DNA of 38,627 nucleotides from an uncultured Dehalococcoidales bacterium (GTDB taxonomy: Bacteria > Chloroflexota > Dehalococcoidia > Dehalococcoidales > JAUXAP01), in assembly GCA_964598825.1 (NCBI GenBank), contig CAZRDI010000001.1, forward strand, positions 1 through 38,627, written 5' to 3'. Within the stretch, counting starts at the first letter, position 1, and each line of letters begins with the position of its first letter. Of this stretch, positions 6,319 to 38,627 are shown piece after piece. The position numbers and the translations under genes are program-made. The notes under the pieces are model-generated. The model did not search any database and was not told the DNA's origin. It worked only from the letters and a program-made list of their open reading frames with translations.

Positions 6319-6384
6319 TTGTACCAGCTTTCTATACTAGAAGTATACTCCCCTAGTGAATAGGAAAACAACAGGCAGCGGAGT

Positions 6385-8369: not shown

Positions 8370-8985
8370 GCAGTACCTTTACCCGTTTCAATCGTGATTT
8401 CTCTTCCCGGTCTCTCTCCTCAAACTTCATATACAGGAACCTGATGGTCACTTGCAAACTGGGGATTATCAGGTATTCCAAGGCGTTGACTATCCTCTTC
8501 GTCCTGTTTATTTCCTTTCCCAGCAGCTCAAGACCGCTCTGTAGTTCAGCCAGTGCGATGATAGCTTTAAGGCATTTTTCGGATAGCTGTGCTGTCTGGT
8601 CCAACCATGATGAGGTATCAACCAGACTATATCCCCTCGCTGCCTCTTTGGTTTCTTTCAGCTCGAAGGAGGGAATTCTTGACCCGGCTACATTCCTTGA
8701 ACCGCTGATGATTTCTAAAGTCTTCTCGCTGGCGGTGAATTCCTTTTCCAGGGCTATGTAGCCATGATATCCGGCAGTGGTCGATAATGCCTTGTAGGCT
8801 TCGGCGAAGCCGTCCAGTAATTCTTTCCTGGCTTCCACCGTCTCTCTCGCCAGTTGCAGGAACTCCAGCATTAGTATTGACAGCCTGTCTTTCACTATCT
8901 TTTGTATCCTGGAGGCCAGAGAAAGGCGTCGCCTCAGCTTTATCAGCTCAATCTTAGTTGGTCTGACTTTTATCAGTTGTGCCAT
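8356..8985 (-). CDS. atpD: A/V-type ATPase subunit D (central stalk)
   Basis: 209 aa. N-terminal VRPTK.EL..L..RL.LA..G..LLKDK-like pattern, coiled-coil composition, and last position of the H-I-K-E-C-F-A-B-D order. Confidence 0.85.
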   Translation of the reverse strand: MAQLIKVRPTKIELIKLRRRLSLASRIQKIVKDRLSILMLEFLQLARETVEARKELLDGFAEAYKALSTTAGYHGYIALEKEFTASEKTLEIISGSRNVAGSRIPSFELKETKEAARGYSLVDTSSWLDQTAQLSEKCLKAIIALAELQSGLELLGKEINRTKRIVNALEYLIIPSLQVTIRFLYMKFEERDREEKSRLKRVKVLLEQK

Positions 8986-8994
8986 TTTCCCTTT

Positions 8995-10398
8995 TTAAGT
9001 CTTTTCTTTATACTTCGGGAGGTATTTCTTTATCAGTTCTTCACTTACTAACTTCAGGTCCTCCTCAGGCAGTGCTGAGAACAGGTTCCAGCCTGTATCC
9101 AGTGTTTCTTCTACCGTCCTCTTCTGAGTCTCACCCTGAGATATGAATTCCCTCTCGAATCTATCGGCAACCTCCAGGTATACCTTGTCTCTATCACTCA
9201 GCGCTTCAGCACCTATGATAGTTGATATTTCTCTCAGGCTGATACCTTCGGCGTAAGTAGCATACAACTGCATGAAGACGTTATTATGGTCCTCTCTGGT
9301 CTTGCCGGGGCCGATACCCTCTTTCATCATCCGTGAAAGTGACAGGAATACGTCTATCGGTGGGTATATACCCTTTCTTTCCAGGTCTCTTGAAATCACA
9401 ATCTGGCCCTCGGTTATGTAACCGGTAAGGTCGGGGATGGGGTGCGTGATGTCATCGTCGGGCATGGTCAGGATAGGCATGATGGTTACCGAGCCTTCCA
9501 CCCCGAATATCCTGCCTGCTCTCTCGTACATCGTTGCCAGGTCAGTATACATATAACCCGGATATCCTCTCCTTGAGGGTATCTCTTCACGCATTGCTGA
9601 AAGCTCACGGAGGGCTTCGCAGTAGTTGGTCATATCGGTGAGGATAACCAGCACATGCATGTGCTGGCTCCAAGCCAGGTACTCAGCGGCGGTTAAGGCT
9701 AATCTGGGCGTTGATATGCGCTCGATAACGGGGTCGGAGGCAGTATTAATGAAAGCTACCGTCCTCTCTCTGGCACCCGTCTCCTCAAGGTTCTTCATAA
9801 AGAAGGCGGCATCGTCATAGCTCACACCAACGGCACCAAAGACGATGGCAAACTTTTCCGCCTTTCCCTTCACTGTAGCCTGTCTGATTACCTGGGCTAC
9901 GATTCGGTTATGTGGCAGTCCCGAGCCGCTGAATATAGGCAGCTTCTGACCCCTGACCAGAGCATTCAGACCGTCTATAGCCGAGATGCCGGTTTCAATA
10001 AACTCGGCGGGGGGTTCACGGCTTGCCGGGTTCATAGGTTGCCCGTTTATGTCCATGTAGTCTTCAGGAACTACAGGCGGCCCCCCATCCATAGGCTCTC
10101 CCATTCCATTAAAAATCCTGCCTAAGATGTCGCCGGATACGGGCAGCCTTAGAGTCTCGCCTCTGCACCTTAACTTGCTGTCACGGAGGTCTACTTCGCT
10201 GACTCCACCGAACACCTGAATAACAGTCGCTTCTTTACTGATGTCTATTGCCTGACCGCGCTTCACCTCACCTGTTGATAGGATGACGTCAACAATCTCG
10301 TTAAACTTCACTCCCGGGATACTCTCAGCTATTAGCAGGGAGCCCTTGGCTCTTTTGATAGCCTTTGTTTCTCTTATAAAAAGTGAAGGTTCTGTCAT
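8995..10398 (-). CDS. atpB: A/V-type ATPase subunit B (non-catalytic)
   Basis: Typical B-subunit blocks: [59 protein letters not shown]. The track start 10446 gives a 16-aa extension overlapping atpA. ATG 10398-10396 overlaps the atpA TGA (TGATG), so I took it as the start (467 aa). Confidence 0.9.
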
Positions 10399-12146
10399 CA
10401 GACTCCTCCTTTGCGAGCTACTAGAGTTGATTCCATCTCTGACCACAGCTCTTTAATTCTCTGCTCAAACACATCATTGGGTATGTCCTTCATCCTGGAT
10501 ATTCTATACACCATCGGAGATGAACGGATTTCGGCAACAGTTACTCCTGACTCTAACATCTCCCTGGTTAGCTCATAAAACTTGATTATAGTCTTGAGCA
10601 TTAGCTGAGCTCTGGCGGGCAGGCAATAGGTATCAATCTCATGATAAGCGCTCTGCATGAGAAAGTCTTCACGTATCATCCTTGATACCAGAAGCAGTAA
10701 CTTGTCTCCTTCAGGCAAGGCTTCCGGACCTACGAGCCTTACAATCTCCTCTAACTCAGCCTCTTGCTGTAAGATTTTCAGAGCGACGGCTCTTGTATCC
10801 GCCCACTCAGGGTCAATCTCGGACCACCACTCTTTAACCGATTCGGCATAAAGGCTGTAGCTGGTAAGCCAGTTTATTGCCGGGAAGTGTCTCCTGTTTG
10901 CCAGCGCAACATCCAGAGAGTATAAAGCCTCCACTATCCTGATGGTGTTCTGGGTAACCGGCTCACTGAAATCGGCACCGGGGGGACTGACTGCGCCGGC
11001 TACTGTTACTGACCCTCTTCTTTCGGGCTTGCCCAGGCATTCAACCAGTCCGGCTCTCTCGTAAAATGATGACAGCCGTGAGCCCATATATGCCGGGAAA
11101 CCTTCCTCGCCCGGCATCTCTTCAAGTCTACCGCCTATCTCTCTCATGGCTTCAGCCCATCTTGAGGTTGAATCGGCAACAAGTAGAATGTCATAGCCCA
11201 TATCACGGTAGTATTCGGCCAGAGTGACGCCTACGAAGATACTGGCTTCACGCGCCACCACTGGCATATTGGAGGTATTAGCCAGAAAGACCTCCTTCTC
11301 CTGTAACAGCCTGCCTGTTGCCGGGTCCTTGAGCTCTTTGAAGCTGTAGAGCACATCAGCCATCTCGTTGCCTCTCTCCCCGCAACCGACATAGATATTG
11401 AGCTGCGTTTGGGCCCACCTGGCTAACTGCTGTAAGGTAACGGTCTTACCGGTACCGAAACCACCGGGCACGGCTGCTTTGCCGCCGAGCGCCAGAGGGA
11501 ACATATAATCCAGAATCCGCATGCCGGTAACCAGCAGCCTTGACGGGTCAAACCTGTCCTTGTAGGGCCGCGGTTTTCTGACCGGCCATTTCTGCATCAT
11601 GGTAATCTCTTTAACCTCACCATCCTGCTCTATACGCATTATAGGTTCCTCAATGGTGAAATCGCCCTTGCGTATCTCCTTTATCACACCCTCAACCCCT
11701 ATGGGCACCATTATTCTATGCTCTATAAGATGCGTCTCGGGAACAGTACCTATGATGTCTCCCCCACCAACCTTATCCCCGGCCTTGACTGTAGGCGTGA
11801 ATTGCCATTTCTTGTCCCGCGGCAGGGCAAACGACTTGGCGCCGCGCTTTAGAAAGAAACCCTCTCGCATAAGGTCGGTCAGGGATTTCTGAAGTCCGTC
11901 ATAAATAGACCCCACGATTCCCGGCCCCAGCTCCACGGTTAAAATCGCTCCTGTCTCTCTAACCTTTTCACCGACTTGTAACCCCTGGGTATCCTCGTGG
12001 ACCTGAATTATGGCTTTATCTTCCTCCAGGCCTATTACCTCTCCAATAATGCCTTCTTCCCCTATCTCAACAATCTCATAGACCTGGCTTCCTAGCATAT
12101 CCTCAGCTATAACCAAGGGGCCCGAGACCCTCCATACCTTACCCAT
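10398..12146 (-). CDS. atpA: A/V-type ATPase subunit A (catalytic)
   Basis: 582 aa. P-loop GGFGTGKTV, the non-homologous insertion typical of A subunits, and [25 protein letters not shown] lies 9 nt upstream of the ATG. Confidence 0.9.
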
Positions 12147-12171
12147 AATTTATTACCTCCGTAACACGCAC

Positions 12172-12525
12172 TTAGATTTCTATCTCAAAACCCGTAAACT
12201 TTCTGACGTAGGATTTGTAATATCCGGTGACATCCTTGTATTTCGTGCCATATTTGGATGGAACCTCTATGATTACCGGCGTTAATCTCTTATCTTCTTT
12301 GACATGTTCTATAAGGTCCAAGACATGCTGCGCATAGTCTTCCTGTATCGCTATTATGCCAATATCAGGCTCGCTTATCAGGTTGGTTAGAGCCTTTCTG
12401 ACACTTTCCTCAACATCATGCTCATCCTCTATGACATGGTATCGTGTTACACCGGCTAACCTCATCCCGTTAACCAGGTCTTCGTTTCCTATAATAGCTA
12501 CATTTAGATTGTTAATAAGACTCAT
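12172..12525 (-). CDS. atpF: A/V-type ATPase subunit F
   Basis: 117 aa. Pattern IAIIGNEDLV.G.RLAG...GII.I.E and position between C and A. ATGA overlap with the atpC stop. Confidence 0.8.
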   Translation of the reverse strand: MSLINNLNVAIIGNEDLVNGMRLAGVTRYHVIEDEHDVEESVRKALTNLISEPDIGIIAIQEDYAQHVLDLIEHVKEDKRLTPVIIEVPSKYGTKYKDVTGYYKSYVRKFTGFEIEI

Positions 12526-13562
12526 GATGCAAATACCAGATAATCCTTTATCTCTTCTATGGGTCTATTATCAAACATCGCCTTTATAATCAGTCTTAAG
12601 TTTCGTATTTCTAGCTCTTTAAGGATTAAGTACCAGGCTACCATTAGCGGAGACAATATTCTCGGTGACAGCGTCTCCTTGCTCAACCTGAACTTATGTT
12701 TTTCAATGACTTCTTCAACAACAGTGACGCTCTTGGTTCTATCGTAGCTGCTTACTACTTCTTCTACCACATTATGGTACTGAGTATGCTCCAGTCTGCC
12801 GGGTATATCACTTAATTTAAGCGATATTAAATCCTTAGCAACGGTATCGGAAATAATATATCCACCACTGAGCATATATTCAGCCGCTTCAGCACCCATG
12901 TTATTAATTATTGCTCTCAGTATAATTTGCAGGTTTATCATGTCTATCATAGTACCGAATGCTTGAGAAAGTATGGCACCATTCTTAACACCTTCTGCAA
13001 CCTTCAATAAGCTCCTGTAGTATTCCTCATCTAACTTAACTTCGGTCAGGCGTCTTGCCCGTACCCCTTCGTCTATATTGTATCCCGTCAGGATTTCGGC
13101 ATAAGTCCCCAGCTTACACTTGTTAAGTAATTCTATAATGCTGCTCGCACTCTCGGCACTGGAAAGTTCATCCAGTAATCCACTATTGTGAATATTACCT
13201 ATTGGTAGCAAACTGGCTTTCTTACCGCTTGAGATAGCCATCAAAGCCGCTTTGATGTTTAAGACATCATATTTTATTACGTATGCCTCCAGTATCTTGC
13301 GTATCTCGGATGGCACGGTCTTGAACCACTCCAGACGCTCCAGACATTCGCCCAGGTAAGTCCATAGGTATTTATCCAGGTCATCAAAGGTTTTAACAGA
13401 CATACCCTCAAGGTAACTGCCTATATCGGTCTCTCTGACAATTTCCAGCGCGTCTTGAACACTGGATGCTTTTGACATACCATCAACGTGGCTGGAGGTC
13501 ACAAACCTGGCCTCCTCACCTTTCAGGTAAGCCGATGTAAATGCATATCCCGCGTTTGGCAA
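12522..13562 (-). CDS. atpC: A/V-type ATPase subunit C (V-type d-like)
   Basis: 346 aa, helical. N-terminal Y.F..AYLKG.EAR.. pattern and position between E and F. TTG start. Confidence 0.8.
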   Translation of the reverse strand: MPNAGYAFTSAYLKGEEARFVTSSHVDGMSKASSVQDALEIVRETDIGSYLEGMSVKTFDDLDKYLWTYLGECLERLEWFKTVPSEIRKILEAYVIKYDVLNIKAALMAISSGKKASLLPIGNIHNSGLLDELSSAESASSIIELLNKCKLGTYAEILTGYNIDEGVRARRLTEVKLDEEYYRSLLKVAEGVKNGAILSQAFGTMIDMINLQIILRAIINNMGAEAAEYMLSGGYIISDTVAKDLISLKLSDIPGRLEHTQYHNVVEEVVSSYDRTKSVTVVEEVIEKHKFRLSKETLSPRILSPLMVAWYLILKELEIRNLRLIIKAMFDNRPIEEIKDYLVFAS

Positions 13563-13571
13563 GGTTAACTC

Positions 13572-14165
13572 CTATTCAGTTCCAAAAAGGTCTTTGCTTA
13601 TCTCAGGCAAAATCTGAGGCAGCAATGTCTCGAGTCTGGTATCATAGGTATTATCTATCCTGATTTTCCCATCAGCGTCCTCGATTATAACCCCTCCCGT
13701 GCAATTGAACTCTTTGACTTCCATTACCCTACCGGCCAATTCCTTATCTTCTTTGATGAGTTTTTGCATGGCGGCTACATCTTTAGGCGCAACGTAAACC
13801 CTGGCTTTATCAACCTCAAGCGTGCTGAGGGCTTCTTTAACCAGGTTCAAGGATGAGACTTTACCACCGGTGGAATCGGACAAGGCCTTTTTCACTTTAC
13901 CGATTATCTCGTCAATCATTCCGGTCTTAACGACTAACAGCTCCTGACGAGCCTTTATGGAAGCCTGAGCCATGATTCGGGCTGCCTCACCCTTGGCTTG
14001 TTCTACGAGCTTGCGTTTCTCTTCCTCAAGTCTGGCTTCCTGCTGCTTCTTAGCTTTCGCTATTCTTTCCTTTGCCTTCTCCTCGGCGTCTTTTACTATA
14101 TCCCTGGCTTCTGCTCTCACCTTGTCCAGAATAGCTTCGCTTATTTTTTCCATACCCATTTGCAA
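13572..14165 (-). CDS. atpE: A/V-type ATPase subunit E (peripheral stalk)
   Basis: 197 aa. Long charged N-terminal helix (KISEAILDKVRAEARDIVKDAEEKAKE...) plus a globular C-domain, as in AhaE/NtpE. Position follows K. Confidence 0.8.
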   Translation of the reverse strand: MQMGMEKISEAILDKVRAEARDIVKDAEEKAKERIAKAKKQQEARLEEEKRKLVEQAKGEAARIMAQASIKARQELLVVKTGMIDEIIGKVKKALSDSTGGKVSSLNLVKEALSTLEVDKARVYVAPKDVAAMQKLIKEDKELAGRVMEVKEFNCTGGVIIEDADGKIRIDNTYDTRLETLLPQILPEISKDLFGTE

Positions 14166-14172
14166 TCTGTCC

Positions 14173-14643
14173 TTACATTAGTCCTAACATTGTTAATGCC
14201 ATTATCGAGAACACCAGGCCGAGTACACCGAGAAGCTCTACGAACACGGCCAGCATAACACCGTTGGTCAGTATCTTGCCTTTTGTCTTGGGCAGGAGTG
14301 ATATGCTAGCGGCACACACATGACCCTGGTATATTGCTGAAAATAGTTCTGCAGCCGCAGTTACAACCCCGCAGCCAATTACAGCAAAACCAGCACCACC
14401 TTCAATCGGCATGTTAGGAACAACCGATGTGAGAATAAGTATAAATACTATCAGTCCGTAGAAGGTCTGGGTCATTGGCAGAGATGCAAATATAATTACA
14501 TTCCTGAACTGCCCCGGCTCTTCAGATAAGGTAGCGGCTCCCGCTGAGCCGGCGATACCTATACCTATTGAAGAACCTAATAAACCTCCTGCCAAAGCTA
14601 TGGCACCACCAAAAGTTGCTAAAGATGCTGGGTCAAATAACAT
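14173..14643 (-). CDS. atpK: A/V-type ATPase proteolipid subunit K (c), 4-TM double hairpin
   Basis: 156 aa, the same length as Enterococcus hirae NtpK. Gly-rich TM1 (GIGIAGSAGA), SLPMTQTFYGL, AIYQGHV, VFVELLGVLG. GGAGGAGG lies 5 nt upstream of the ATG. Confidence 0.85.
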   Translation of the reverse strand: MLFDPASLATFGGAIALAGGLLGSSIGIGIAGSAGAATLSEEPGQFRNVIIFASLPMTQTFYGLIVFILILTSVVPNMPIEGGAGFAVIGCGVVTAAAELFSAIYQGHVCAASISLLPKTKGKILTNGVMLAVFVELLGVLGLVFSIMALTMLGLM

Positions 14644-14655
14644 TTTTGCCTCCTC

Positions 14656-16644
14656 CTAAGATTTTGTTGCTATGGATACGGTTGCCCGTCTCCTTAATTT
14701 GAATGGACTATACTCTCTACCTCCCCCTTCATAAAACTTGAACAGGAATTCCACGAAGCATAACCTGAGGGAGTGCATAAAACCGGTAATAGCGGTAAGT
14801 ACCATGTTAATCACATGCCCGAAAACGACGATTACAACACCCATAATGCCGCCGATGATAACACCGGCTGTGCCGGGTATTATTTCACCGAATAAACCGG
14901 CCATCATATTGAAAGTAGAGGCTAAATAGAATGTAGCTAAACCAACTCCGGCTAGCCGGGCGTAGGACATGACATCACCCAGAAGCCCGGTGATATCAAA
15001 AAGCCAGAGAATGGCTCCCAGACCCCCGCTCTGCATTATGCTTGACACCGCGATTAATACGACCCCGCCAGCCATGCAATATAGCAGGATAGAGTAAATT
15101 TGCGGTGTGAATCCTGGTATATTAACACCCAGCAGAGAATGAAGAATTGTCGGTACGCCAATCTCAAGGAGAAACAGGCCGACCTTACTGAGTATCAAAG
15201 CCTTGTTCCTCTCCTTTATCCCGTTGACGAAGGCTATTATATGGCCTATGTTGACATGGATAAAGCCGATTCCAAGTGCCAGGATTATGAATGACACCGG
15301 GTCTTGCAGAAGGTCCTTAACCCCCTGGACAAGGGGAAAAGCTTCAAAGCCAAAGATTGCATAAATATCGCCCAGGTACTGCCCTGTAAGCACTCCACCA
15401 ATGAGAGCAACGCCACCACAGATATAAATTAACCTCTGGAAGAGCTTAAAGTTGTCCGATTTAGGGTCATCAACAAATTTGCCCAGGAGGAATTTAGCGA
15501 GGAGTATAATTCCCAGGGCATACACTACGTCACACACCATGATGCCAAAGAACAGGGCAAAGGAATAAGCCACTATAGGAGTAGGGTCCTTCTCCCTGTA
15601 TTTAGGGAGAGCAAACAGGTTTACTATAGCCTGAAATGGCTTGATTCCTCTGATATTACTCTGTTTAGTGGGAGGCTCCTCTTCTTTTTCTGGCTCGCGG
15701 GTGTCAATAAATACATAATCTATATTTTCTCTGACTTCCGAGAACGCGGTCTCGGCAGCACTTTCCGGAATCCACCCCTCAATTAAGGTCACATACTTAG
15801 CTTCGGTAGCCTTTTCTAAAACCGAAAGCCTTTCACTTTCCGCTGCCAACGCTTCACGCAGAAGGGCAATTCTGTTTAAGTCTTCCCTTGACTTCTCTTG
15901 AAGTTCTTCACGAAGTTTTGTTATCTCCTCTTCAAGACTGCCAATCTTGCTGCCGGTTGTTTTAAGGAAGTCCTCTAGGGTTAAATCCTCATCCGGTATC
16001 TGTAAAATTTTGCCTCCGGCATCAGTAACCAGAGATTCTATAGTCTCCTGGTCTTTAACTTTAGCCACCGCATGGATAATGGTCTCGCCTTCTATAGTGG
16101 TAACAATATTTTCAAACAGGTAGCTTTCAAGCTTATCATGAAGGGTCTCATACATCTCGCTGGAAACAACAAAGACATTAGAAAAGAGGTAATCGCCGGA
16201 AAATCTCAGGTCTCCTAGTCTAAGGTCCGCTTGTTCGGCAAGAGGTTCAAGATATCCCTTTAGTTCTGCTAACTGCTGAGCTTCCTCGTCAAGTTTGACG
16301 ATTCTCTCATATAGCTTGTTAACCTTATTGTATAATGTTCTTACTTCTCCACTAATCTCACCAAAGGGTCTGGTATAGATTACTTCAATATCTTCATCCA
16401 GAGATACCTGCTCCTTTTGTGGTATGTGAACTAACACATTATTAACGAAGGTTAATAGCTCACCGACTTCCTCTTGCTCATGTTCAATTGCTGCTCTGTC
16501 AATAGGTCTTAATTCTTTGCTTTCCTCAATATGAAGCGCCCCAATTTTATGTAAAGTTTTAAGCGTTTTCTCCGAGTCATCTTTTATTGTTACTACCCTG
16601 ACTTTGACCATAGACTCAGGATTACTGAGGAATAGGGGTATCAT
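14656..16644 (-). CDS. atpI: A/V-type ATPase subunit I (a subunit: cytoplasmic N-domain plus membrane C-domain)
   Basis: 662 aa. About 330 aa of soluble coiled-coil N-half, then a polytopic C-half containing the conserved SYARL.G.GLA and H..R....EF blocks. ATGA overlap with atpH. Confidence 0.85.
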   Translation of the reverse strand: MIPLFLSNPESMVKVRVVTIKDDSEKTLKTLHKIGALHIEESKELRPIDRAAIEHEQEEVGELLTFVNNVLVHIPQKEQVSLDEDIEVIYTRPFGEISGEVRTLYNKVNKLYERIVKLDEEAQQLAELKGYLEPLAEQADLRLGDLRFSGDYLFSNVFVVSSEMYETLHDKLESYLFENIVTTIEGETIIHAVAKVKDQETIESLVTDAGGKILQIPDEDLTLEDFLKTTGSKIGSLEEEITKLREELQEKSREDLNRIALLREALAAESERLSVLEKATEAKYVTLIEGWIPESAAETAFSEVRENIDYVFIDTREPEKEEEPPTKQSNIRGIKPFQAIVNLFALPKYREKDPTPIVAYSFALFFGIMVCDVVYALGIILLAKFLLGKFVDDPKSDNFKLFQRLIYICGGVALIGGVLTGQYLGDIYAIFGFEAFPLVQGVKDLLQDPVSFIILALGIGFIHVNIGHIIAFVNGIKERNKALILSKVGLFLLEIGVPTILHSLLGVNIPGFTPQIYSILLYCMAGGVVLIAVSSIMQSGGLGAILWLFDITGLLGDVMSYARLAGVGLATFYLASTFNMMAGLFGEIIPGTAGVIIGGIMGVVIVVFGHVINMVLTAITGFMHSLRLCFVEFLFKFYEGGGREYSPFKLRRRATVSIATKS

Positions 16645-32895: not shown

Positions 32896-34689
32896 CTACT
32901 CCTCTCGCAGACGAATATGCAGTTCAGCCAGTTGCTCATCGGTAGCTGACACAGGAGCACCAAAAAGTAAATCGGTGGCGCTCTGGCTCTTGGGAAAAGC
33001 CATTACATCCCTGATGTTTTCTTCCCCTGTCAGTAGCATCACGGTGCGGTCAATACCGGAGGCTATGCCGCCATGAGGCGGTGCACCGTATTCAAAAGCC
33101 TCAAGCAGATGCCCGAAGCGCTCTTCAATCTCTTCATCCCTATAACCCAGCAGCCTGAACACCTTCCTCTGGAGCTCTGCTTTGTGAATCCTAATGCTGC
33201 CGCCGCCAAGCTCAAACCCGTTACATATCATGTCATAGTGCCTGCCCTGCACTTTCTCCGGAGCAGTATCCAGCAGAGACATATCCTCGTCTCTGGGCGA
33301 AGTAAACGGATGATGCATCGGCTCCCATTGCCCGGTCTCTTCATTTCTATCAAACAGCGGGAAATCAACAACGAAAGCGAAAGCGAGCCGATTGGGCTCA
33401 GCCAACTTAAGCCGATGCCCCATCTCCTGACGCAGCTTGTCCAGTGCCATGTTAACCAGCCTGGGTTTACCGGCAATAATAAGCAGGAGATCTCCTATGC
33501 TGGCACTCAGGCGCTCCGCCATCTGCTTAACCCGGTCAATGGTGAGAAACTTGGCTGCCACCGATTTCACCATCTCAATAGTCAAACCATCCAGGCTACC
33601 GGCAGAGGTACCCAGAGACATTGTTATCACGCCCTCGGCACCAACACCCTGGACCAGTTTATTAAGCTCGTTAAACTGACTGCGGCTATAATCGGCACAA
33701 CCGGGGGCACATATCGCCTTCACCTTACCTCCGTCAGCAATAGCCGAACGGAAAATGGAGAAATCGGATTCGGCAACAATGTCCGACAGGTCTTTTAGCT
33801 CCAGTCCAAAACGCAAATCCGGCTTATCCGAGCCGTAACGCTCCATTGCCTCCGCATAGCTGAGACGTGGGAAGGGTTTCGTCAGCTGCATTTCGGGCTT
33901 GAGTGTCTCTACCATAGAAGTGTGAAGTTCCTCCATCAGATTGAGGATATCCTCCTCTTCAGCAAAACTCATTTCCAGGTCAAGCTGGGTGAACTCCGGC
34001 TGACGGTCAGCCCGCGTGTCTTCATCACGAAAGCACTTGGCAATCTGGTAATACTTTTCCACCCCGGCTACCATCAACAACTGTTTGAGCTGCTGTGGAG
34101 ACTGAGGTAGAGCATAAAATTTACCGGGGTGAACACGGCTGGGCACCAGATAATCGCGAGCCCCTTCAGGAGTGCTCTTAATCAGAATCGGCGTTTCCAC
34201 CTCTGTGAATCCTCTGGCATCCAGAAAATCACGGATGTGCTTCACTATCCGGGAACGAAGTCTCAGGTTTTCCCTCATCCGGGTCCGGCGCAGGTCAAGA
34301 TAGCGGTACTTAAGTCGGAGGCTCTCCTCAACTTCAATTTCCTCGTTGATATAGAAAGGTGGTGTCTTTGACTGGTTGAGTATAGTTGCGTCACTGGCGA
34401 TAACCTCAATCTCACCGGTGGGCAGGTTAGGATTTTCAGTCCCCGGTGGACGGAGGGCGACTTCACCGCTAACTCTAGCCACATATTCACTTCGTATCTC
34501 GCTGGCTGTTTCATGGCTTGGTTTTGACAGTTCCGGATTGAATACCACCTGGACTACGCCCGCCACATCCCGCAGGTCAATAAATATCAGCCCGCCGTGG
34601 TCACGGCGGCGGTCTACCCAACCAGCCAGGGTTACCCTGGTACCGGCGTGCTTCTTTCTCAGCTCGCCACAGCTATGACTCTTAAGCAA
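32896..34689 (-). CDS. aspS: Aspartyl-tRNA synthetase, bacterial long type
   Basis: 597 aa. OB-fold N-domain (GWV.RRRDHGGLIFIDLRD), class II motifs (FRDED.RADRQPEFTQLD; GGGSIRIH; GAPPHGG.A.G.DR) and the bacterial insertion domain. TTG start 5 nt after AGGAGG. Confidence 0.95.
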   Translation of the reverse strand: MLKSHSCGELRKKHAGTRVTLAGWVDRRRDHGGLIFIDLRDVAGVVQVVFNPELSKPSHETASEIRSEYVARVSGEVALRPPGTENPNLPTGEIEVIASDATILNQSKTPPFYINEEIEVEESLRLKYRYLDLRRTRMRENLRLRSRIVKHIRDFLDARGFTEVETPILIKSTPEGARDYLVPSRVHPGKFYALPQSPQQLKQLLMVAGVEKYYQIAKCFRDEDTRADRQPEFTQLDLEMSFAEEEDILNLMEELHTSMVETLKPEMQLTKPFPRLSYAEAMERYGSDKPDLRFGLELKDLSDIVAESDFSIFRSAIADGGKVKAICAPGCADYSRSQFNELNKLVQGVGAEGVITMSLGTSAGSLDGLTIEMVKSVAAKFLTIDRVKQMAERLSASIGDLLLIIAGKPRLVNMALDKLRQEMGHRLKLAEPNRLAFAFVVDFPLFDRNEETGQWEPMHHPFTSPRDEDMSLLDTAPEKVQGRHYDMICNGFELGGGSIRIHKAELQRKVFRLLGYRDEEIEERFGHLLEAFEYGAPPHGGIASGIDRTVMLLTGEENIRDVMAFPKSQSATDLLFGAPVSATDEQLAELHIRLREE

Positions 34690-34723
34690 AAACGCCTCCT
34701 ATTTTTGAGAAACACTAAGGCTG

Positions 34724-34752
34724 ATTATAGCTTATAAGCGTTTGCTCTTCAA
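34724..34752 (-). promoter_or_regulatory. sigma70-like promoter candidate of aspS
   Basis: Minus strand TTGAAG (34752-34747), 17-nt spacer, TATAAT (34729-34724). Leaves only about 30 nt of leader. Confidence 0.45.
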
Positions 34753-34773
34753 CTTGAGAGCTACAAAAGCAAA

Positions 34774-34802
34774 TTGACAAGCAAGGGCTTTAATACTATC
34801 AT
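34774..34802 (+). promoter_or_regulatory. sigma70-like promoter candidate of the Cys-rich gene / sulfur cluster
   Basis: TTGACA (34774-34779), 17-nt spacer, TATCAT (34797-34802). Divergent from the aspS promoter. Confidence 0.4.
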
Positions 34803-34852
34803 CATAATGAGGTAATTACGAAGCAGGTAATAACTTAAGAGGAGTAAGCATA

Positions 34853-35125
34853 ATGCCAGGAGCATGTGGTATAGCTTGTGAGGTCTGTGCACTTCATGAA
34901 AAGGAGATATGCCCAGGATGCGTTGCCGGAACCGATGCCAAGGCCCCAAAGTTTGTGGAGGCGCTCAAGGAATGGGAGATAACCTGTTCAGTGCTTGAGT
35001 GTGCCATGAAGAATAAGGTGGATTATTGCTTTAAGTGCGGGAAATTCCCCTGTGATGCCCATTATCAGGCGGGCCCCTATACCAAGGGGCTTCTGGATAC
35101 TTGGAAGAAGTTTTTGAAGAAGTAA
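34853..35125 (+). CDS. Small Cys-rich protein, DUF3795-like
   Basis: 90 aa with 10 Cys: CGIACEVC, CPGC, C....C, CFKCGKFPC. This spacing resembles the DUF3795 pattern as I recall it. GAGGAG lies 9 nt upstream of the ATG. Confidence 0.5.
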   Translation: MPGACGIACEVCALHEKEICPGCVAGTDAKAPKFVEALKEWEITCSVLECAMKNKVDYCFKCGKFPCDAHYQAGPYTKGLLDTWKKFLKK

Positions 35126-35256
35126 GCTGGTCCTATTCATCTGGAGATTGTAAGAAAAGAGTTTCCTTATCGTAAAAAGCTCTTAATGCTCTTAAAGGGT
35201 TTAAAGAAAAGAAATAATCAGGGCTAGCACTTCGTAACTGCCTCAAGGTTAAAGAT

Positions 35257-36465
35257 ATGGCAAAAACGATTGAAGAAATAAACGAGAAGATAAAGCAGGG
35301 CAAAGCGGTAGTGGTTACCGCCGAAGAGGTCATTGGCCTGGCTAAAAAGCAGGGCGTAAAAAAGGCGGCGCAGGAGATAGACGTGGTAACCACCGGCACC
35401 TTTGCACCTATGTGCTCATCGGGTGCCTATTTCAACATCGGGCACTCTAAACCGAGAATAAAGCTGGGCGGTGGCAGGGTCTATCTTAACGATGTCCCGG
35501 CTTACGCCGCATTTGCCGTCGCGGATTTGTTCATAGGGGCTAACGCCCTTCCTGATGATGACCCCAGAAACAGAATCCACCCCGGCGAATTCAACTATGG
35601 CGGCGGGCATGTAATTGAGGAGCTTGTCGCCGGTAAGGATATCAGGTTGTCGGCAACCGCCTACGGTACCGATTGCTATCCAAGGAAGAAACTTGAGACA
35701 TGGATTAATATAAAAGACCTCAATGAGGCGGTGCTGTTCAATATCAGGAATGCTTACCAGAACTATAACGTGGCGGTTAATCTGTCCGATAAAACGATTT
35801 ATACCTATATGGGGGTATTAAAATCGGATTCAGGCAATGCCAACTACAGCAGTGCCGGGCAGCTATCGCCGTTGCTGAATGACCCCTACTACAAGACTAT
35901 CGGCATAGGCACCAGAATATTTCTGGGTGGCGGGACAGGTTTCGTTAGCTGGCAGGGCACCCAGCATAATCCTGATGTGCCCCGAACTGACAAAGGAGTA
36001 CCCACCAGAGGTGCCGGGGCACTGTCAGTGATAGGCGACTTGAAGCAGATGAGCCCGCGGTGGCTGGTAGGCATAAGCATGCTGGGCTATGGCTGCACTC
36101 TGGCGGTGGGTGTCGGCATTCCTATTCCCGTGCTCTCCGAAGAAATCCTGCAATATACCACCGTATCCGATGAAGATATTCTGGCTCCGGTTGTGGACTA
36201 TTCAAAGGCTTATCCACAATTGAAATCGGATATCCTGGGTGAAGTCAGCTATGCCCAATTGAAAAGCGGCAGTATAAAAGTTCGGGGTAAGGAGATAGCC
36301 ACGGCCTCCCTGTCAAGCTATCCACGTGCGGTAGAGATTGCCAGCACCCTGAAGGAATGGATACAGAGCGGGAAGTTCCTGCTCACCGAACCGGTGGCGC
36401 CTTTACCCGGAGTAGAATCCGGTATAACCTTAAAATCACTTAAGGAACGCCCGATAAAGGAGTAA
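35257..36465 (+). CDS. COG1900/DUF39-type protein (homocysteine biosynthesis, L-aspartate-semialdehyde sulfurtransferase family; no CBS domains)
   Basis: 402 aa. KTIEEINEKIKQGKAVVVTAEE, VDVVTTGTF.PMCSSGA.FN, GGGHVIE.L..GK and GTRIFLGGG.G.V.W.GTQH blocks match the MA1821/MJ0100 family as I recall it. Followed by the characteristic NIL-ferredoxin partner. Confidence 0.75.
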   Translation: MAKTIEEINEKIKQGKAVVVTAEEVIGLAKKQGVKKAAQEIDVVTTGTFAPMCSSGAYFNIGHSKPRIKLGGGRVYLNDVPAYAAFAVADLFIGANALPDDDPRNRIHPGEFNYGGGHVIEELVAGKDIRLSATAYGTDCYPRKKLETWINIKDLNEAVLFNIRNAYQNYNVAVNLSDKTIYTYMGVLKSDSGNANYSSAGQLSPLLNDPYYKTIGIGTRIFLGGGTGFVSWQGTQHNPDVPRTDKGVPTRGAGALSVIGDLKQMSPRWLVGISMLGYGCTLAVGVGIPIPVLSEEILQYTTVSDEDILAPVVDYSKAYPQLKSDILGEVSYAQLKSGSIKVRGKEIATASLSSYPRAVEIASTLKEWIQSGKFLLTEPVAPLPGVESGITLKSLKERPIKE

Positions 36466-36490
36466 AAACCCTGTTCTGGAGAAGAAGCAA

Positions 36491-36901
36491 ATGGCTGTTT
36501 TCAAGAGAATAGTGCTACGTTTCCCCAGGCGCATGGTAGACCGACCTATAGTGAGCCGGTTAGTCAGGGATTATAACCTTGACTTTAACATTCTAAAGGC
36601 TTCAGTCACCCCTGAGGAGGAGGGACTGCTGGTGGTGGAATTGAGCGGTGAACAGAGTGACTATGATAAGGGTATCAGGTACCTCGCCGAAACCGGGGTG
36701 AGAATTCAATCACTCAGCCAAGATGTCACCCGCAATGAAGAAAGGTGCACTCACTGCGGTGCCTGTGTAACTATTTGCCCCACGGGGGCTTTTGAGGTTG
36801 ACCCTATAACCAGGTTGGTAAACTTTTACGACGAAAAATGCCTGGCGTGTGAACTGTGCATCAAGGCTTGTCCTCCCAGGGCCATGGAGCTGCATTTTTA
36901 G
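36491..36901 (+). CDS. NIL-domain plus 2x[4Fe-4S] ferredoxin protein (partner of COG1900)
   Basis: 136 aa. N-terminal NIL-like beta-alpha-beta domain (RIVLRFP...PIVSRLVRDYNLDFNILKASV...G.LVVELSG). C-terminal CTHCGACVTICP and CLACELCIKACP. Confidence 0.75.
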   Translation: MAVFKRIVLRFPRRMVDRPIVSRLVRDYNLDFNILKASVTPEEEGLLVVELSGEQSDYDKGIRYLAETGVRIQSLSQDVTRNEERCTHCGACVTICPTGAFEVDPITRLVNFYDEKCLACELCIKACPPRAMELHF

Positions 36902-36904
36902 TCA

Positions 36905-37630
36905 ATGTATGAGCCGAAAACCTACCGTCACCGGGTTAGGGGCCAAGACTTAATCTCTTTTAACATAGCAGTAAAAGAAACGGACCTGTATATCCGTGCT
37001 TCAACTAACCTCAAAAGAAAAGCCCTTAAGCTGGTATTAAAGTACCGTAGTATACTGGAAAAGTACATTGAGCGGCACCCTGACTTCCTGACCTCCCTTG
37101 AGCCTTTCCCTGCTGGTAATGATGCCCCGCACATTGTAAAGGCAATGGCAGAATCGGCAGCAAGGGTTGGAATTGGCCCCATGGCTTCAGTGGCGGGAGC
37201 CATAGCCGAGTTTGTCGGCAACGAGCTACTAGATTTCTCACCGGAGGTAATAGTAGAAAACGGGGGTGATATCTACCTGAAAAGCTCAAAGGAAAGAGTG
37301 GTGGCAATTTACGCTGGCGAATCATCTCTGAGTGGCAAGATTGGTCTGGAAATCAGCGGAAAAGATACACCCCTGGGCATTTGCACCTCCTCAGGAACCG
37401 TGGGGCATTCCCTGAGCTATGGGAAGGCCGACGCCGTGGTGGTGCTTTCTAAATCAGCCGCGCTGGCTGATGCTGCCGCCACCGCTATAGGCAACCTGAT
37501 TACCCGGTCCGATGACATCCCGACCGGGATTGAGTTTGCACAGAGCATCAATGAACTGAAAGGTGGGATAATTATTAAGGGTGATAGTATGGGGCTCTGG
37601 GGTGAGGTAAAAATTTGCCAGATAAGCTAA
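36905..37630 (+). CDS. UPF0280/COG2122 ApbE-like protein
   Basis: 241 aa. YR......F.I.VKETDLYI, GIGPMASVAGAIAEFVG, VIVENGGDIYL, GICTSSGTVGHSLSYGKADAVVV and ALADAAATAIGN match the UPF0280 family pattern as I recall it. Confidence 0.65.
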   Translation: MYEPKTYRHRVRGQDLISFNIAVKETDLYIRASTNLKRKALKLVLKYRSILEKYIERHPDFLTSLEPFPAGNDAPHIVKAMAESAARVGIGPMASVAGAIAEFVGNELLDFSPEVIVENGGDIYLKSSKERVVAIYAGESSLSGKIGLEISGKDTPLGICTSSGTVGHSLSYGKADAVVVLSKSAALADAAATAIGNLITRSDDIPTGIEFAQSINELKGGIIIKGDSMGLWGEVKICQIS

Positions 37631-37670
37631 AAATCGCGTGAAGAAGGAGAGAAAGGGGGGACTGGAAAAC

Positions 37671-38426
37671 ATGCTTAGCCAGAACGAGCGGAAAAGGTAT
37701 GACAGGCAAATAATGATGAGGGGGTTTGGTGAGGATGGGCAGGAGAAGCTGAAGCAGGCAAAGGTCGTTATTGCCGGGAGCGGAGGGCTTGGCTCAGCGG
37801 CGTCTATATATCTGGCAGCGGCCGGAGTGGGAACGATACGAATAATTGACCACGATAAAGTAGAGCTCAGTAACCTGAACAGGCAGGTTTTGTACTGGGA
37901 TAATGATATAGGCAGTAATAAGGTTATTGCTGCTTCCGAGAAGCTCAGCAAGCTAAATCCGGAAGTGAAGATAGAGGCAATAAAGGAGAGAATAACCGAA
38001 ACCAATGTTTCTCAGCTTGTATCCGGCTTTGATCTGATAGTTGATGCCATGGATAATTTGCCAACGAGATTTTTGCTGAACAGAGTGGCTCTGGACAAAA
38101 ACATGCCCTTCTTTCATGGTGCGGTACAGGGATTTGAGGGAATGGTAACGACGATAATACCCGGCAAGACAGCTTGCCTGAGATGCGTATACCGGAGGAC
38201 TATTCCTCAGCAAGAAAACCCGGTTGTTGGAGTAACTCCGGCAGTCATCGCCTGTATCCAGGCAACCGAGGTAATCAAGTATATCGTCGGGGTTGGCAAG
38301 CTGCTGACCAACAGATTTTTGGTGTATAATGGACTGGACATGCAATTCACCGAGCTCAGGGTCAAAAAGGATCCCGCCTGTGAACATTGTGGCAATTCGG
38401 GAGGCAAGAAGACCAGTGAGCGTTAA
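37671..38426 (+). CDS. ThiF/MoeB/HesA-family E1-like adenylyltransferase
   Basis: RYDRQI, the VVIAGSGGLGSAASIYLAAAGVG nucleotide loop, D.D.V..SNLNRQ, and two Cys pairs (CLRC, CEHC). No rhodanese domain. The track start GTG 37638 adds 11 Lys/Glu-rich residues that overlap the purine-rich RBS, so ATG 37671 is preferred. Confidence 0.85.
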   Translation: MLSQNERKRYDRQIMMRGFGEDGQEKLKQAKVVIAGSGGLGSAASIYLAAAGVGTIRIIDHDKVELSNLNRQVLYWDNDIGSNKVIAASEKLSKLNPEVKIEAIKERITETNVSQLVSGFDLIVDAMDNLPTRFLLNRVALDKNMPFFHGAVQGFEGMVTTIIPGKTACLRCVYRRTIPQQENPVVGVTPAVIACIQATEVIKYIVGVGKLLTNRFLVYNGLDMQFTELRVKKDPACEHCGNSGGKKTSER

Positions 38427-38627
38427 GGTAAACATTCACCCCTTCTTTTATCATGCTACTGATAACCAGAGCGTGGTTGAGGTTGAGGGGGAAACCGTTG
38501 GCCAGTGCCTTGAGCAACTGGCTGTCCACTACCCGGAGCTCAAGAACTGGCTGTTTGAGAAAAATGGCAGATTGAACCGGCTGGTCGAAGTCTATGTTAA
38601 TGGACAGACCTCTTACCCGGAGGAGCT
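38416..38627 (+). CDS. MoaD/ThiS-family ubiquitin-like sulfur-carrier candidate; 5' part only, cut by the window edge
   Basis: Not in the track. A GTG at 38416 overlaps the E1 gene by 11 nt, with GGGAGG upstream. Hand translation gives VSVKVNIHPFFYHATDNQSVVEVEGETVGQCLEQLAVHYPELKNWLFEKNGRLNRLVEVYVNGQTSYPEEL. This is the typical MoaD/SAMP-like layout, open to the end of the window. The C-terminal GG cannot be seen. Confidence 0.6.
   Translation, partial: MSVKVNIHPFFYHATDNQSVVEVEGETVGQCLEQLAVHYPELKNWLFEKNGRLNRLVEVYVNGQTSYPEE

What the first reader, a model, noticed from the sequence alone, without database searches (positions are those of the whole stretch)
34853..38627. COG1900 / NIL-ferredoxin / COG2122 homocysteine trio strung together with a ThiF-type E1 and a MoaD/ThiS-type carrier: possible thiocarboxylate-fed homocysteine pathway
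Seen: six co-directional genes are separated by 131, 25, 3 and 40 nt and then an 11-nt overlap. They are a 10-Cys small protein, a COG1900/DUF39 protein, a NIL plus 2x[4Fe-4S] protein, a UPF0280/COG2122 ApbE-like protein, a ThiF/MoeB-type E1 (GSGGLGS, CLRC...CEHC, no rhodanese) and a MoaD/ThiS-like ORF that overlaps the E1 stop. Established: in methanogens the COG1900 protein and its NIL-ferredoxin partner (M. acetivorans MA1821/MA1822, M. jannaschii MJ0100) make homocysteine from aspartate semialdehyde and reduced sulfur. COG2122 (MA1715) is genetically linked to sulfide assimilation. The in vivo sulfur donor chemistry is not settled. Separately, E1 plus beta-grasp carriers make protein thiocarboxylates for thiamin, molybdopterin and the HcyS/HcyF methionine route of Wolinella. 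Inference: physical fusion of both sets into one apparent operon suggests the carrier thiocarboxylate delivers sulfur to the COG1900 enzyme. That would be a hybrid route I do not know to be described. The flanking aspS is unrelated housekeeping.
Basis: partly seen in the sequence, partly recalled or inferred. Interest (0 to 1): 0.8.

Follow-up and report, generated by a model that had tools for sequence, protein, structure and literature searches.

The report
Homocysteine genes joined to sulfur-carrier genes
A Dehalococcoidales bacterium has placed its known homocysteine-making genes in one apparent operon with an ordinary sulfur-carrier activation pair; this hints at, but does not show, a new way of feeding sulfur into methionine synthesis.

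Summary
Six co-directional genes lie at the stated coordinates with the stated spacings. All have the predicted families: DUF3795, COG1900/HcyBio (508 bits), NIL plus 2x[4Fe-4S], COG2122, a MoeB/ThiF E1 without rhodanese, and a truncated ThiS/MoaD-type carrier. A 92%-identical relative completes the carrier (90 aa, ending Gly-Gly). Its next gene is FabK/NMO-like, not moaE or thiG.

In 80 species-representative COG1900 loci, an E1 lies within 10 kb in 8 and a carrier in 7. These fall in at least seven unrelated lineages, which is far above chance. However, cysteine synthase, Rrf2, NifS and Thi4 are much commoner neighbours.

Sampled from the E1 side, the same E1-carrier orthologues (at least 70% identical) sit beside Mo/W-cofactor genes (FdhD, MOSC, XdhC, AFOR, MoeA) in 6 of 7 contexts. 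They sit beside COG1900 in 2 of 7. Sister genomes with the same synteny lack the pair.

Most likely this is a general-purpose thiocarboxylate system co-transcribed with the homocysteine module inside a sulfur-metabolism cluster. Direct thiocarboxylate feeding of the COG1900 enzyme remains possible (about 0.3) and is testable. I found no paper that proposes it.

The parts
34774..34802 (+). Promoter-like site (TTGACA, 17 nt, TATCAT) upstream of the first gene
   Evidence: 11 of 12 consensus matches. This is a consensus match only, not proof of function.
34853..35125 (+). DUF3795 small protein with 10 Cys. It is a lineage-specific addition and not a conserved member of the cluster.
   Evidence: PF12675, 30.4 bits. 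It is absent from L001, L022 and all other related loci.
35257..36465 (+). [quoted passage not shown] It has no CBS domain.
   Evidence: PF01837, 508 bits, full length. Cys53 (in PMCSSG) and Cys140 are invariant in alignment A2. By my reading they correspond to MA1821 Cys54 and Cys131, as described in PMC12068725.
36491..36901 (+). NIL domain plus 2x[4Fe-4S] ferredoxin subunit (MA1822-type)
   Evidence: NIL 63 bits, Fer4_7 53.7 bits. It is adjacent to HcyBio in 66 of 80 related loci.
36905..37630 (+). COG2122/UPF0280 ApbE-like protein (MA1715-type sulfide-trafficking factor)
   Evidence: PRK04334.1-3, 314 bits, above the cut-off; matches PDB 2o34 at 2e-46. It is present in 34 of 80 related loci, mostly Chloroflexota.
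37671..38426 (+). MoeB/ThiF-type E1 adenylyltransferase, 251 aa, no rhodanese domain
   Evidence: PF00899, 264 bits; the best solved relative is E. coli MoeB 1jw9 (3e-49), followed by ThiF. Orthologues at least 70% identical occur across phyla.
38416..38627 (+). CysO/SAMP1/MoaD-type beta-grasp sulfur carrier. It is cut by the contig end after 70 codons, and its start overlaps the E1 stop by 11 nt.
   Evidence: The full-length orthologue in L001 (80% identical over the fragment) is 90 aa and ends in Gly-Gly. The best solved relatives are CysO proteins 4n6e_B (7.7e-9) and 3dwg_C (1e-7).

Best explanation
The string of genes is a sulfur-metabolism operon made of two modules that most likely work in parallel.

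**Module 1 (35257-37630)** is the known L-ASST route to homocysteine.
- The COG1900 subunit adds reduced sulfur to aspartate semialdehyde. In MA1821 the equivalent of Cys53 carries a persulfide.
- The NIL/2x[4Fe-4S] subunit supplies the two electrons.
- COG2122 helps to capture sulfide.

**Module 2 (37671 to the contig end)** is a general-purpose thiocarboxylate generator.
- A MoeB-type E1 adenylates the C-terminal Gly-Gly of a CysO/SAMP1/MoaD-type carrier.
- Sulfide or a persulfide then converts the adenylate to a thiocarboxylate.
- The main clients of this carrier, judged from where its orthologues sit, are molybdenum/tungsten-pterin cofactor synthesis or sulfuration and other thiolations.

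The two modules were joined in one Dehalococcoidales subclade. This fits the general habit of L-ASST genes to lie in sulfur-trafficking clusters.

Shown here: gene identities, the operon-like layout and the comparative distribution. Inferred: co-transcription, the clients of the carrier, and the absence of direct transfer to L-ASST.
For: **Gene identities:**

**E1-side sample.** This gave seven distinct contexts of the clade at least 70% identical:
- L007: HcyBio-NIL/Fd-FdhD-CutA1-E1-carrier, with two moeA genes nearby.
- L008: FdhD-CutA1-E1-carrier.
- L009: AFOR-x-E1-carrier.
- L013: MOSC/FdhD-CutA1-E1-carrier, next to XdhC.
- L101: Mo-oxidoreductase, FdhD-CutA1-E1-carrier, XdhC.
- L105: AFOR-Fd-E1-carrier.
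- L104: the window-type arrangement.

Six of the seven contexts hold Mo/W-pterin genes and two of the seven hold HcyBio. Short metagenome contigs add NifS-NifU, CysK and CutA1 as further partners.

**Carrier similarity.** The window-lineage carrier (L001, 80% identical to the window fragment) is 66-68% identical to carriers in FdhD/CutA1 contexts. It is only 49% identical to the carrier of L022, which has the window's arrangement.

**L-ASST-side census of 80 species representatives:**
- NIL/Fd: 66
- Rrf2: 36
- CysK: 35
- COG2122: 34
- NifS: 19
- Thi4: 18
- E1: 8
- carrier: 7

**Sister genomes.** L015 and L024 keep the aspS/trio/.../tgt synteny but have no E1-carrier there.

**Literature.** Genetics in Desulfovibrio found only DUF39, NIL/Fd and COG2122 as the homocysteine genes. 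The same paper treats the thiocarboxylate route as a separate pathway (PMC5764234).
Against: - The layout is tight. The gap from COG2122 to the E1 is 40 nt with a Shine-Dalgarno-like stretch and no predicted terminator. The junction is kept in L001, L022 and L027.
- No MoaE was seen in the window or in any annotated E1-clade locus. The molybdopterin-synthase role is therefore itself only inferred.
- COG1900 lies beside an E1 or carrier in at least seven unrelated lineages. In some of these no other sulfur acceptor is nearby: in L057 the trio is followed by three tandem carriers, as are the window-type loci. Pure co-regulation does not explain this fully.
- E1 density near COG1900 is 9 genes in 1.14 Mb. 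By my own estimate this is roughly ten times a typical genome-wide density of ThiF-family genes.
Confidence: 0.55

Rival explanations
1. This is the hybrid route proposed by the first reader.
- The E1 adenylates the carrier.
- Sulfide, possibly handed over by COG2122 because the E1 has no rhodanese domain, forms the carrier thiocarboxylate.
- The thiocarboxylate attacks the aldehyde of aspartate semialdehyde on the COG1900 subunit.
- An S-to-O acyl shift followed by elimination gives a thioaldehyde, which the NIL/ferredoxin subunit reduces to homocysteine.

ATP would then pay for sulfide capture when sulfide is scarce.
For: **Operon layout**
- The layout is operon-like with no terminator.
- It is conserved in a subclade: window, L001/L002, L022, L027 and L104.

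**Independent juxtapositions**
- L076: HcyBio-NIL/Fd-E1-carrier-CysK.
- L053: HcyBio-NIL/Fd-E1-Thi4.
- L043: Thi4-HcyBio-SufCBD-Fd-E1-carrier.
- L057: trio followed by three carriers.
- L007: HcyBio-NIL/Fd-FdhD-CutA1-E1-carrier.
- L031 and L036: larger sulfur clusters.

**Other points**
- Eight of the nine E1 genes near HcyBio are on the same strand as HcyBio.
- The carrier's nearest solved relatives are CysO proteins, which feed amino-acid or thiosugar synthesis.
- The chemistry parallels known thiocarboxylate additions to carbonyls in ThiG and BexX. This is established knowledge applied by inference.
Against: - About 90% of L-ASST loci have no E1 or carrier within 10 kb.
- The same carrier orthologues sit mostly with Mo/W-cofactor genes.
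- In many juxtapositions, other plausible acceptors (CysK, Thi4) are also adjacent.
- Sister genomes L015 and L024 lack the pair at this site.
- Published work points to sulfide and a Cys persulfide on the COG1900 subunit. Genetic screens found no E1 or carrier requirement (PMC5764234; PMC12068725).
Confidence: 0.3
2. The E1-carrier pair is a CysO-type system for cysteine synthesis, as in M. tuberculosis CysO/CysM/MoeZ. Its cysteine synthase is encoded elsewhere in this genome. The pair sits next to the homocysteine genes only because both belong to sulfur amino-acid metabolism.
For: - The carrier's best solved relatives are CysO proteins 4n6e_B and 3dwg_C.
- CysK/CysM-family genes are the commonest non-core neighbour of HcyBio, in 35 of 80 loci.
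- L076 has E1-carrier-CysK-CysE.
- The D. mccartyi locus L031 has E1, a carrier ending GGNK, TusA, a JAMM protease, Thi4 and CysK directly upstream of HcyBio.
- L095 has an E1 of the window's clade followed by CysK.
Against: - No cysteine synthase is present anywhere in the 38.6-kb window.
- There is no JAMM protease, and the carrier ends in a free Gly-Gly.
- The E1 lacks the rhodanese domain of MoeZ.
- E1-clade contexts are mostly Mo/W-related.
Confidence: 0.1
3. The adjacency is accidental. The E1-carrier pair is transcribed on its own and has no regulatory or functional tie to the trio.
For: - In L104 about 1.2 kb separates COG2122 from the E1, and in L027 about 200 nt does.
- The E1-carrier(-NMO) block is present or absent between the trio and the ACAD/tgt genes in close relatives, which looks like an insertion or deletion.
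Against: - The gap is 40-52 nt in the window, L001 and L022, with no promoter-like or terminator-like site in it.
- Recurrence in unrelated lineages is far above chance.
Confidence: 0.05

Closest known systems
L-aspartate semialdehyde sulfurtransferase pathway (M. acetivorans MA1821/MA1822 with MA1715; D. vulgaris DvMF_1464/0262/0044; D. mccartyi DET0921-0919)
   Same: - It has the same three families in the same order as in Dehalococcoides.
- The full-length HcyBio domain is present with both conserved cysteines.
- The NIL plus 2x[4Fe-4S] partner and COG2122 are both present.
- The window's HcyBio protein is 77% identical to that of a D. mccartyi genome (L031).
   Different: - There is no CBS domain, as in other bacterial members.
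- An E1 and a carrier are appended in the same apparent operon. This is seen in only a small minority of loci.
MoeB/MoaD (archaeal-type MoaD, SAMP1/UbaA-like) thiocarboxylate systems
   Same: - The E1 is most similar to E. coli MoeB.
- The carrier scores best against the SAMP1 and archaeal MoaD models.
- Orthologues lie beside FdhD, MOSC, XdhC, AFOR and MoeA.
   Different: - The carrier scores are below both curated cut-offs: 50.5 against 60, and 45.3 against 49.5.
- No MoaE is seen near any orthologue.
- Here the pair follows homocysteine genes.
CysO/CysM/Mec/MoeZ cysteine pathway (M. tuberculosis) and CysO-BexX (Amycolatopsis)
   Same: - The carrier's best solved relatives are these CysO proteins, aligned over the full length.
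- In those systems one E1 serves several carriers and acceptors. This is established knowledge; see also PMC3227635 in the listing.
   Different: - There is no CysM or JAMM protease in the window.
- The E1 has no rhodanese domain.
- The carrier needs no processing, because it ends in a free Gly-Gly.
Thiocarboxylate-dependent homocysteine routes: Wolinella HcyS/HcyF/HcyD/MetY and Streptomyces MetO/Mec/MoeZ/MetM
   Same: An E1 and a beta-grasp carrier are encoded together with homocysteine-forming genes.
   Different: - The acceptor enzymes in those routes are PLP enzymes acting on activated homoserine: MetY, and the threonine-synthase-like MetM.
- None of these is present here. The only homocysteine enzyme in the operon is the non-PLP COG1900 protein.
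- Literature: PMC5764234 and bioRxiv 10.1101/2024.10.14.618325.
Sulfur-relay gene clusters around prokaryotic Thi4 (Oliveira-Filho et al., bioRxiv 10.1101/2025.09.23.678117)
   Same: - That survey lists ThiF, ThiS, CysK, NifS, FdhD, MOSC and HcyBio as recurrent neighbours of Thi4.
- The same gene set recurs around HcyBio here.
   Different: - The window has no Thi4, CysK or NifS.
- The preprint does not propose that ThiS feeds L-ASST.

Membership tests
L-ASST catalytic subunit (COG1900a / PF01837) | Full-length HcyBio domain above the curated cut-off | tested here: met
   508 bits against a cut-off of 26.2; residues 17-376 cover profile positions 1-349 of 349.
L-ASST catalytic subunit (COG1900a / PF01837) | Conserved cysteines equivalent to MA1821 Cys54 (essential) and Cys131 | tested here: met
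   - Cys53 (in PMCSSG) and Cys140 are invariant in alignment A2 of COG1900a representatives.
- The PMCSSG cysteine is absent from the more distant paralogues P0249, P0252, P0264 and P0270.
- The roles of these residues are taken from PMC12068725. The equivalence of residue numbers is my inference from position and motif.
L-ASST catalytic subunit (COG1900a / PF01837) | Adjacent NIL plus 2x[4Fe-4S] partner (MA1822 type) | tested here: met
   the partner lies 25 nt downstream. The same pairing occurs in 66 of 80 related loci.
L-ASST catalytic subunit (COG1900a / PF01837) | Forms homocysteine from aspartate semialdehyde and reduced sulfur | not testable with these tools
   This needs enzymology or genetics.
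COG2122 / UPF0280 (MA1715 type) | Match to the family model above the cut-off | tested here: met
   NF003323, 314 bits against a cut-off of 271; matches PDB 2o34 at 2e-46.
ThiF/MoeB E1 adenylyltransferases | ThiF domain, Gly-rich nucleotide loop and CxxC...CxxC zinc site | tested here: met
   264 bits. GSGGLGS, CLRC and CEHC are visible in the sequence.
MoeZ/Uba4-type E1 (adenylyltransferase plus sulfurtransferase) | C-terminal rhodanese domain | tested here: not met
   The protein is 251 aa and contains only the ThiF domain.
ThiS/MoaD/CysO beta-grasp sulfur carriers | Family model match | tested here: inconclusive
   - The window fragment scores 21.9 bits on PF02597 against a cut-off of 22.5.
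- The full orthologue L001 scores 50.5 bits on SAMP1 (cut-off 60) and 45.3 bits on moaD_arch (cut-off 49.5).
- Pfam ThiS is listed for the L001 protein.
- CysO structures match at 7.7e-9 and 1e-7.
ThiS/MoaD/CysO beta-grasp sulfur carriers | C-terminal Gly-Gly | tested here: inconclusive
   - The C terminus is not visible in the window because the contig ends at codon 70.
- It is present in the orthologues L001 (...IFGG), L008, L009, L013, L022 and L076.
Molybdopterin synthase system (MoeB-MoaD-MoaE) | MoaE partner or moaA/moaC in the neighbourhood | tested here: not met
   - None is present in the window.
- None is present in the annotated E1-clade loci.
- Other Mo/W-cofactor genes (FdhD, MOSC, XdhC, AFOR, MoeA) are present in 6 of the 7 contexts.
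Wolinella HcyS/HcyF/HcyD/MetY pathway | PLP sulfhydrylase MetY, JAMM protease, and a carrier with a C-terminal extension | tested here: not met
   - No such genes are present in the window or in L001.
- The orthologous carrier ends in a free Gly-Gly.
CysO/CysM/Mec pathway | CysM-type cysteine synthase and JAMM protease in the cluster | tested here: not met
   - Both are absent from the window.
- They are present in other HcyBio loci such as L031 and L076.

The most novel reading that the evidence does not exclude
In this lineage, and perhaps in L007, L057 and L076, homocysteine sulfur would arrive as a protein thiocarboxylate rather than as free sulfide.
- A rhodanese-less MoeB-type E1 and a CysO-like carrier would capture sulfide at the cost of ATP.
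- COG2122 would possibly act as the sulfide-loading factor.
- The carrier would then hand the sulfur to the non-PLP COG1900 enzyme acting on aspartate semialdehyde.

This would be a third kind of thiocarboxylate-dependent homocysteine synthesis, and the first with a non-PLP acceptor.
Probability: 0.28. Interest if true: 0.75.

Novelty: new member of a known kind. Interest (0 to 1): 0.45.

Why it matters
The physiological sulfur donor of the COG1900 homocysteine enzyme, and the role of COG2122, are still unsettled.

A recurrent link to an E1 and carrier gives a concrete hypothesis: ATP-driven sulfide capture through a thiocarboxylate. It can be tested with cultivable Dehalococcoides or by reconstitution.

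If the link reflects only shared regulation, the result is still useful. It shows that L-ASST genes are embedded in sulfur-trafficking clusters (Rrf2, CysK, NifS, Thi4, Suf, E1/carrier). It also shows that one widespread E1-carrier orthologous group has very varied neighbours, which warns against reading function from a single adjacency.

Tried and rejected
- **Exact look-ups.** Look-ups of the window's E1 (two start codons) and its COG1900 protein found no record. The window is the whole 38,627-bp contig (P0001), so it cannot be extended. I used relatives instead.
- **Riboswitch or leader RNA.** Rfam at gathering thresholds over the whole window found only three tRNAs. A permissive scan of 34680-35270 found nothing credible.
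- **Solved structure of the COG1900 protein.** None was found.
- **Rauch and Perona papers.** The 2014 and 2016 papers could not be read. I cannot exclude that they mention E1 or carrier neighbours.
- **DUF3795 as part of the system.** Rejected, because it is absent from all relatives.
- **An ordinary Moco or thiamin operon that merely abuts the trio, with moaE or thiG next.** Rejected for the immediate neighbours. The next genes are NMO/FabK-like and acyl-CoA dehydrogenase.
- **Docking of carrier and L-ASST by structure prediction.** Not possible, because the predictor accepts only single native sequences.

Full report
**Observation.** Profile searches confirm every assignment:
- DUF3795: 30.4 bits.
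- HcyBio/COG1900: 508 bits, full length.
- NIL (63 bits) plus two 4Fe-4S motifs.
- COG2122/UPF0280: NCBIfam PRK04334.1-3, 314 bits, above the cut-off.
- ThiF-family E1: 264 bits, 251 aa, no rhodanese domain.
- A 70-codon fragment of a ThiS/MoaD-type carrier: 21.9 bits, just under the cut-off because it is truncated.

A strong promoter-like site lies at 34774-34802. No + strand terminator-like site lies in any intergenic gap. No riboswitch or other known RNA lies upstream. The divergent upstream gene is aspS. The rest of the contig is housekeeping: 2-oxoacid:ferredoxin oxidoreductase, two CitMHS transporters, a V/A-type ATPase operon, TrkA, DprA, TopA, XerC, EF-P, ClpP and trigger factor. The window contains no Mo-cofactor, thiamin or cysteine synthase genes.

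**Origin, and completing the carrier.** The window is an entire 38,627-bp NCBI contig of a Dehalococcoidales genome, so it cannot be extended. A syntenic relative, L001, has a COG1900 protein 92% identical to the window's. It has the same aspS/trio/E1/carrier order. Its carrier is 90 aa and ends ...IFGG. The next gene is a nitronate-monooxygenase/FabK-like flavoprotein. L022 has trio-E1-carrier-NMO-acyl-CoA dehydrogenase, followed by tgt on the opposite strand. The condition 'followed by moaE or thiG' is therefore not met. The carrier needs no protease. DUF3795 is missing from every relative and is not part of the system.

**Census from the COG1900 side.** I scanned one genome per species with an alignment of COG1900a proteins. 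The scan kept the 80 closest loci, 68-85% identical to the window protein. They come from Chloroflexota, Omnitrophota, Thermodesulfobacteriota, Spirochaetota, Elusimicrobia, Aerophobetes and others. I then searched them with tblastn and a carrier HMM. The number of loci with each neighbour was:
- NIL/ferredoxin: 66
- Rrf2 regulator: 36
- cysteine synthase (CysK/CysM family): 35
- COG2122: 34
- NifS: 19
- Thi4: 18
- SufC: 15
- a PP-loop ATPase: 13
- CysE: 12
- E1: 8
- carrier: 7
- CutA1: 5
- FdhD: 3

Nine E1 genes in 1.14 Mb is, by my own estimate, about ten times a usual genome-wide density. Eight of the nine lie on the same strand as COG1900. Only 3 of 28 trio loci with enough downstream sequence have an E1 or carrier right after COG2122.

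On a COG1900 tree, window+L001 and L022+L027 form one small Dehalococcoidales subclade. Its sisters, L015 and L024, keep the synteny but carry a NIL-only 80-aa gene instead of E1-carrier.

Independent juxtapositions elsewhere:
- L076: NifS-HcyBio-NIL/Fd-E1-carrier-CysK-CysE.
- L053: CysK-HcyBio-NIL/Fd-E1-Thi4.
- L043: Thi4-HcyBio-SufC-SufBD-Fd-E1-carrier.
- L057: the trio followed by three tandem carriers.
- L007: HcyBio-NIL/Fd-FdhD-CutA1-E1-carrier.
- L036 and the D. mccartyi locus L031, which have larger clusters. L031 reads NifS-Rrf2-E1-carrier(GGNK)-TusA-JAMM-Thi4-x-CysK-HcyBio-NIL/Fd-x-COG2122.

**Census from the E1 side.** The window E1 has thousands of relatives at 70% identity or more, across phyla.
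- FdhD-CutA1-E1-carrier (L008).
- MOSC/FdhD-CutA1-E1-carrier beside XdhC (L013).
- A Mo-oxidoreductase, FdhD-CutA1-E1-carrier and XdhC (L101).
- AFOR-x-E1-carrier (L009).
- AFOR-Fd-E1-carrier (L105).
- HcyBio-NIL/Fd-FdhD-CutA1-E1-carrier with two moeA genes nearby (L007).
- The window-type arrangement (L104).

Six of the seven hold Mo/W-pterin genes and two of the seven hold COG1900. Short metagenome contigs add NifS-NifU, CysK and CutA1. The FdhD in L008 passes the curated FdhD cut-off. No MoaE appears in any of these loci. The window-lineage carrier (L001) is 66-68% identical to carriers in FdhD/CutA1 contexts. It is 49% identical to the L022 carrier, which shares the window's arrangement. 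The carrier is therefore not a homocysteine-specialised clade.

**Family placement.** The E1's best solved relative is E. coli MoeB, followed by ThiF. The carrier's best solved relatives are CysO from Amycolatopsis (4n6e_B, 7.7e-9) and from M. tuberculosis (3dwg_C, 1e-7). A Thermus MoaD-related protein and SAMP1 come next. The carrier scores just below the curated SAMP1 and archaeal-MoaD cut-offs. COG2122 matches the unannotated structure 2o34. No COG1900 structure is deposited.

**Literature.**
- The trio is the known L-ASST route. DUF39, NIL/ferredoxin and COG2122 are required in Desulfovibrio, and the route is predicted for Dehalococcoides DET0921-0919 (PMC5764234; PMC4045070).
- MA1821 Cys54 is essential, and MA1715 is described as a sulfur-trafficking factor (PMC12068725).
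- Known thiocarboxylate routes to homocysteine use PLP enzymes. These are the Wolinella route (cited) and Streptomyces MetO/MetM (bioRxiv 10.1101/2024.10.14.618325).
- A 2025-26 preprint on Thi4 neighbourhoods lists ThiF, ThiS, CysK, NifS, FdhD, MOSC and HcyBio as recurrent co-neighbours. These mixed sulfur-relay clusters have therefore been seen before. Transfer from the carrier to L-ASST is not proposed there.
- I found no paper that proposes it. I could not read the original Rauch and Perona papers.

**Mechanism and verdict.** The best-supported reading is two modules in one sulfur-metabolism operon (confidence 0.55).
- L-ASST with COG2122 makes homocysteine from aspartate semialdehyde and sulfide.
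- A general-purpose MoeB-type E1 and a CysO/SAMP1/MoaD-type carrier make thiocarboxylate. This serves mainly Mo/W-cofactor chemistry and other thiolations.

The hybrid route remains open (confidence about 0.3). The juxtaposition recurs in unrelated lineages, and in some of them no other acceptor is nearby. A thiocarboxylate attack on an aldehyde is chemically reasonable. An ATP-driven sulfide trap would also make sense for organisms living at low sulfide. Two less likely readings are a CysO-type cysteine role with the synthase encoded elsewhere (0.1) and plain accident (0.05).

The components are ordinary members of known families. The arrangement is a minority, lineage-specific one. The interest lies in the testable hypothesis about the sulfur donor.

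Noticed in passing
L057:12767-13611: In a Chloroflexi genome the COG1900/NIL-Fd/COG2122 trio is followed directly by three tandem carrier paralogues of 92, 94 and 91 aa. The middle one ends ...CFPRS instead of Gly-Gly. No E1 lies within 10 kb. A 72-aa NifU-like gene sits between COG1900 and NIL/Fd.
   Followed up: partly
L031:3318-12977: A Dehalococcoides mccartyi genome carries one long co-directional sulfur cluster: NifS, Rrf2, E1, a carrier ending GGNK, a 112-aa ORF, TusA-like, a JAMM protease, Thi4, a 280-aa protein (probably DUF6775), CysK, then COG1900, NIL/Fd, a 139-aa ORF and COG2122. It resembles the mycobacterial CysO/Mec/CysM set fused to the homocysteine genes.
   Followed up: partly
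L008:7653-7985; L013:7653-7991; L101:7657-7998; L007:7662-7985; L003:12664-12987: The small CutA1 protein recurs immediately upstream of the E1 in FdhD-CutA1-E1-carrier modules. Separately, it recurs just after or before the COG1900 trio (5 of 80 loci). Its role in sulfur or cofactor handling is unexplained.
   Followed up: partly
L015:12373-12612; L024:15365-15607: Sister genomes that lack E1-carrier after the trio encode a free-standing NIL-domain protein of about 80 aa at that position.
   Followed up: no
window 7914-16644 (- strand): A complete V/A-type ATPase operon is present (DUF61, then subunits D, B, A, C/AC39, E, K and I) in a Dehalococcoidales contig.
   Followed up: no
window 4870-7800 (- strand): Two tandem CitMHS-family transporters lie next to a 2-oxoacid:ferredoxin oxidoreductase and a thioredoxin-like 2Fe-2S ferredoxin (1275-3837).
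   Followed up: no
window 34853-35125: The 10-Cys DUF3795 gene is inserted between aspS and COG1900 only in this contig. The 92%-identical relative L001 has about 85 nt there instead.
   Followed up: yes
L007:8748-8930 and 9255-9956: The carrier after the E1 is truncated to 61 aa, directly beside a Y1 (IS200-like) transposase gene.
   Followed up: no
L001:13477-14298; L022:13459-15623: An NMO/FabK-like flavoprotein (274 bits on the FabK model, below its cut-off of 453) follows the carrier in the window's lineage. In L022 an acyl-CoA dehydrogenase comes next. No link to sulfur chemistry is evident.
   Followed up: partly
L009:6773-7900: A 375-aa protein with no Pfam or NCBIfam match sits between the tungsten-type aldehyde:ferredoxin oxidoreductase and the E1-carrier pair. 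DUF6125 genes flank the pair.
   Followed up: no
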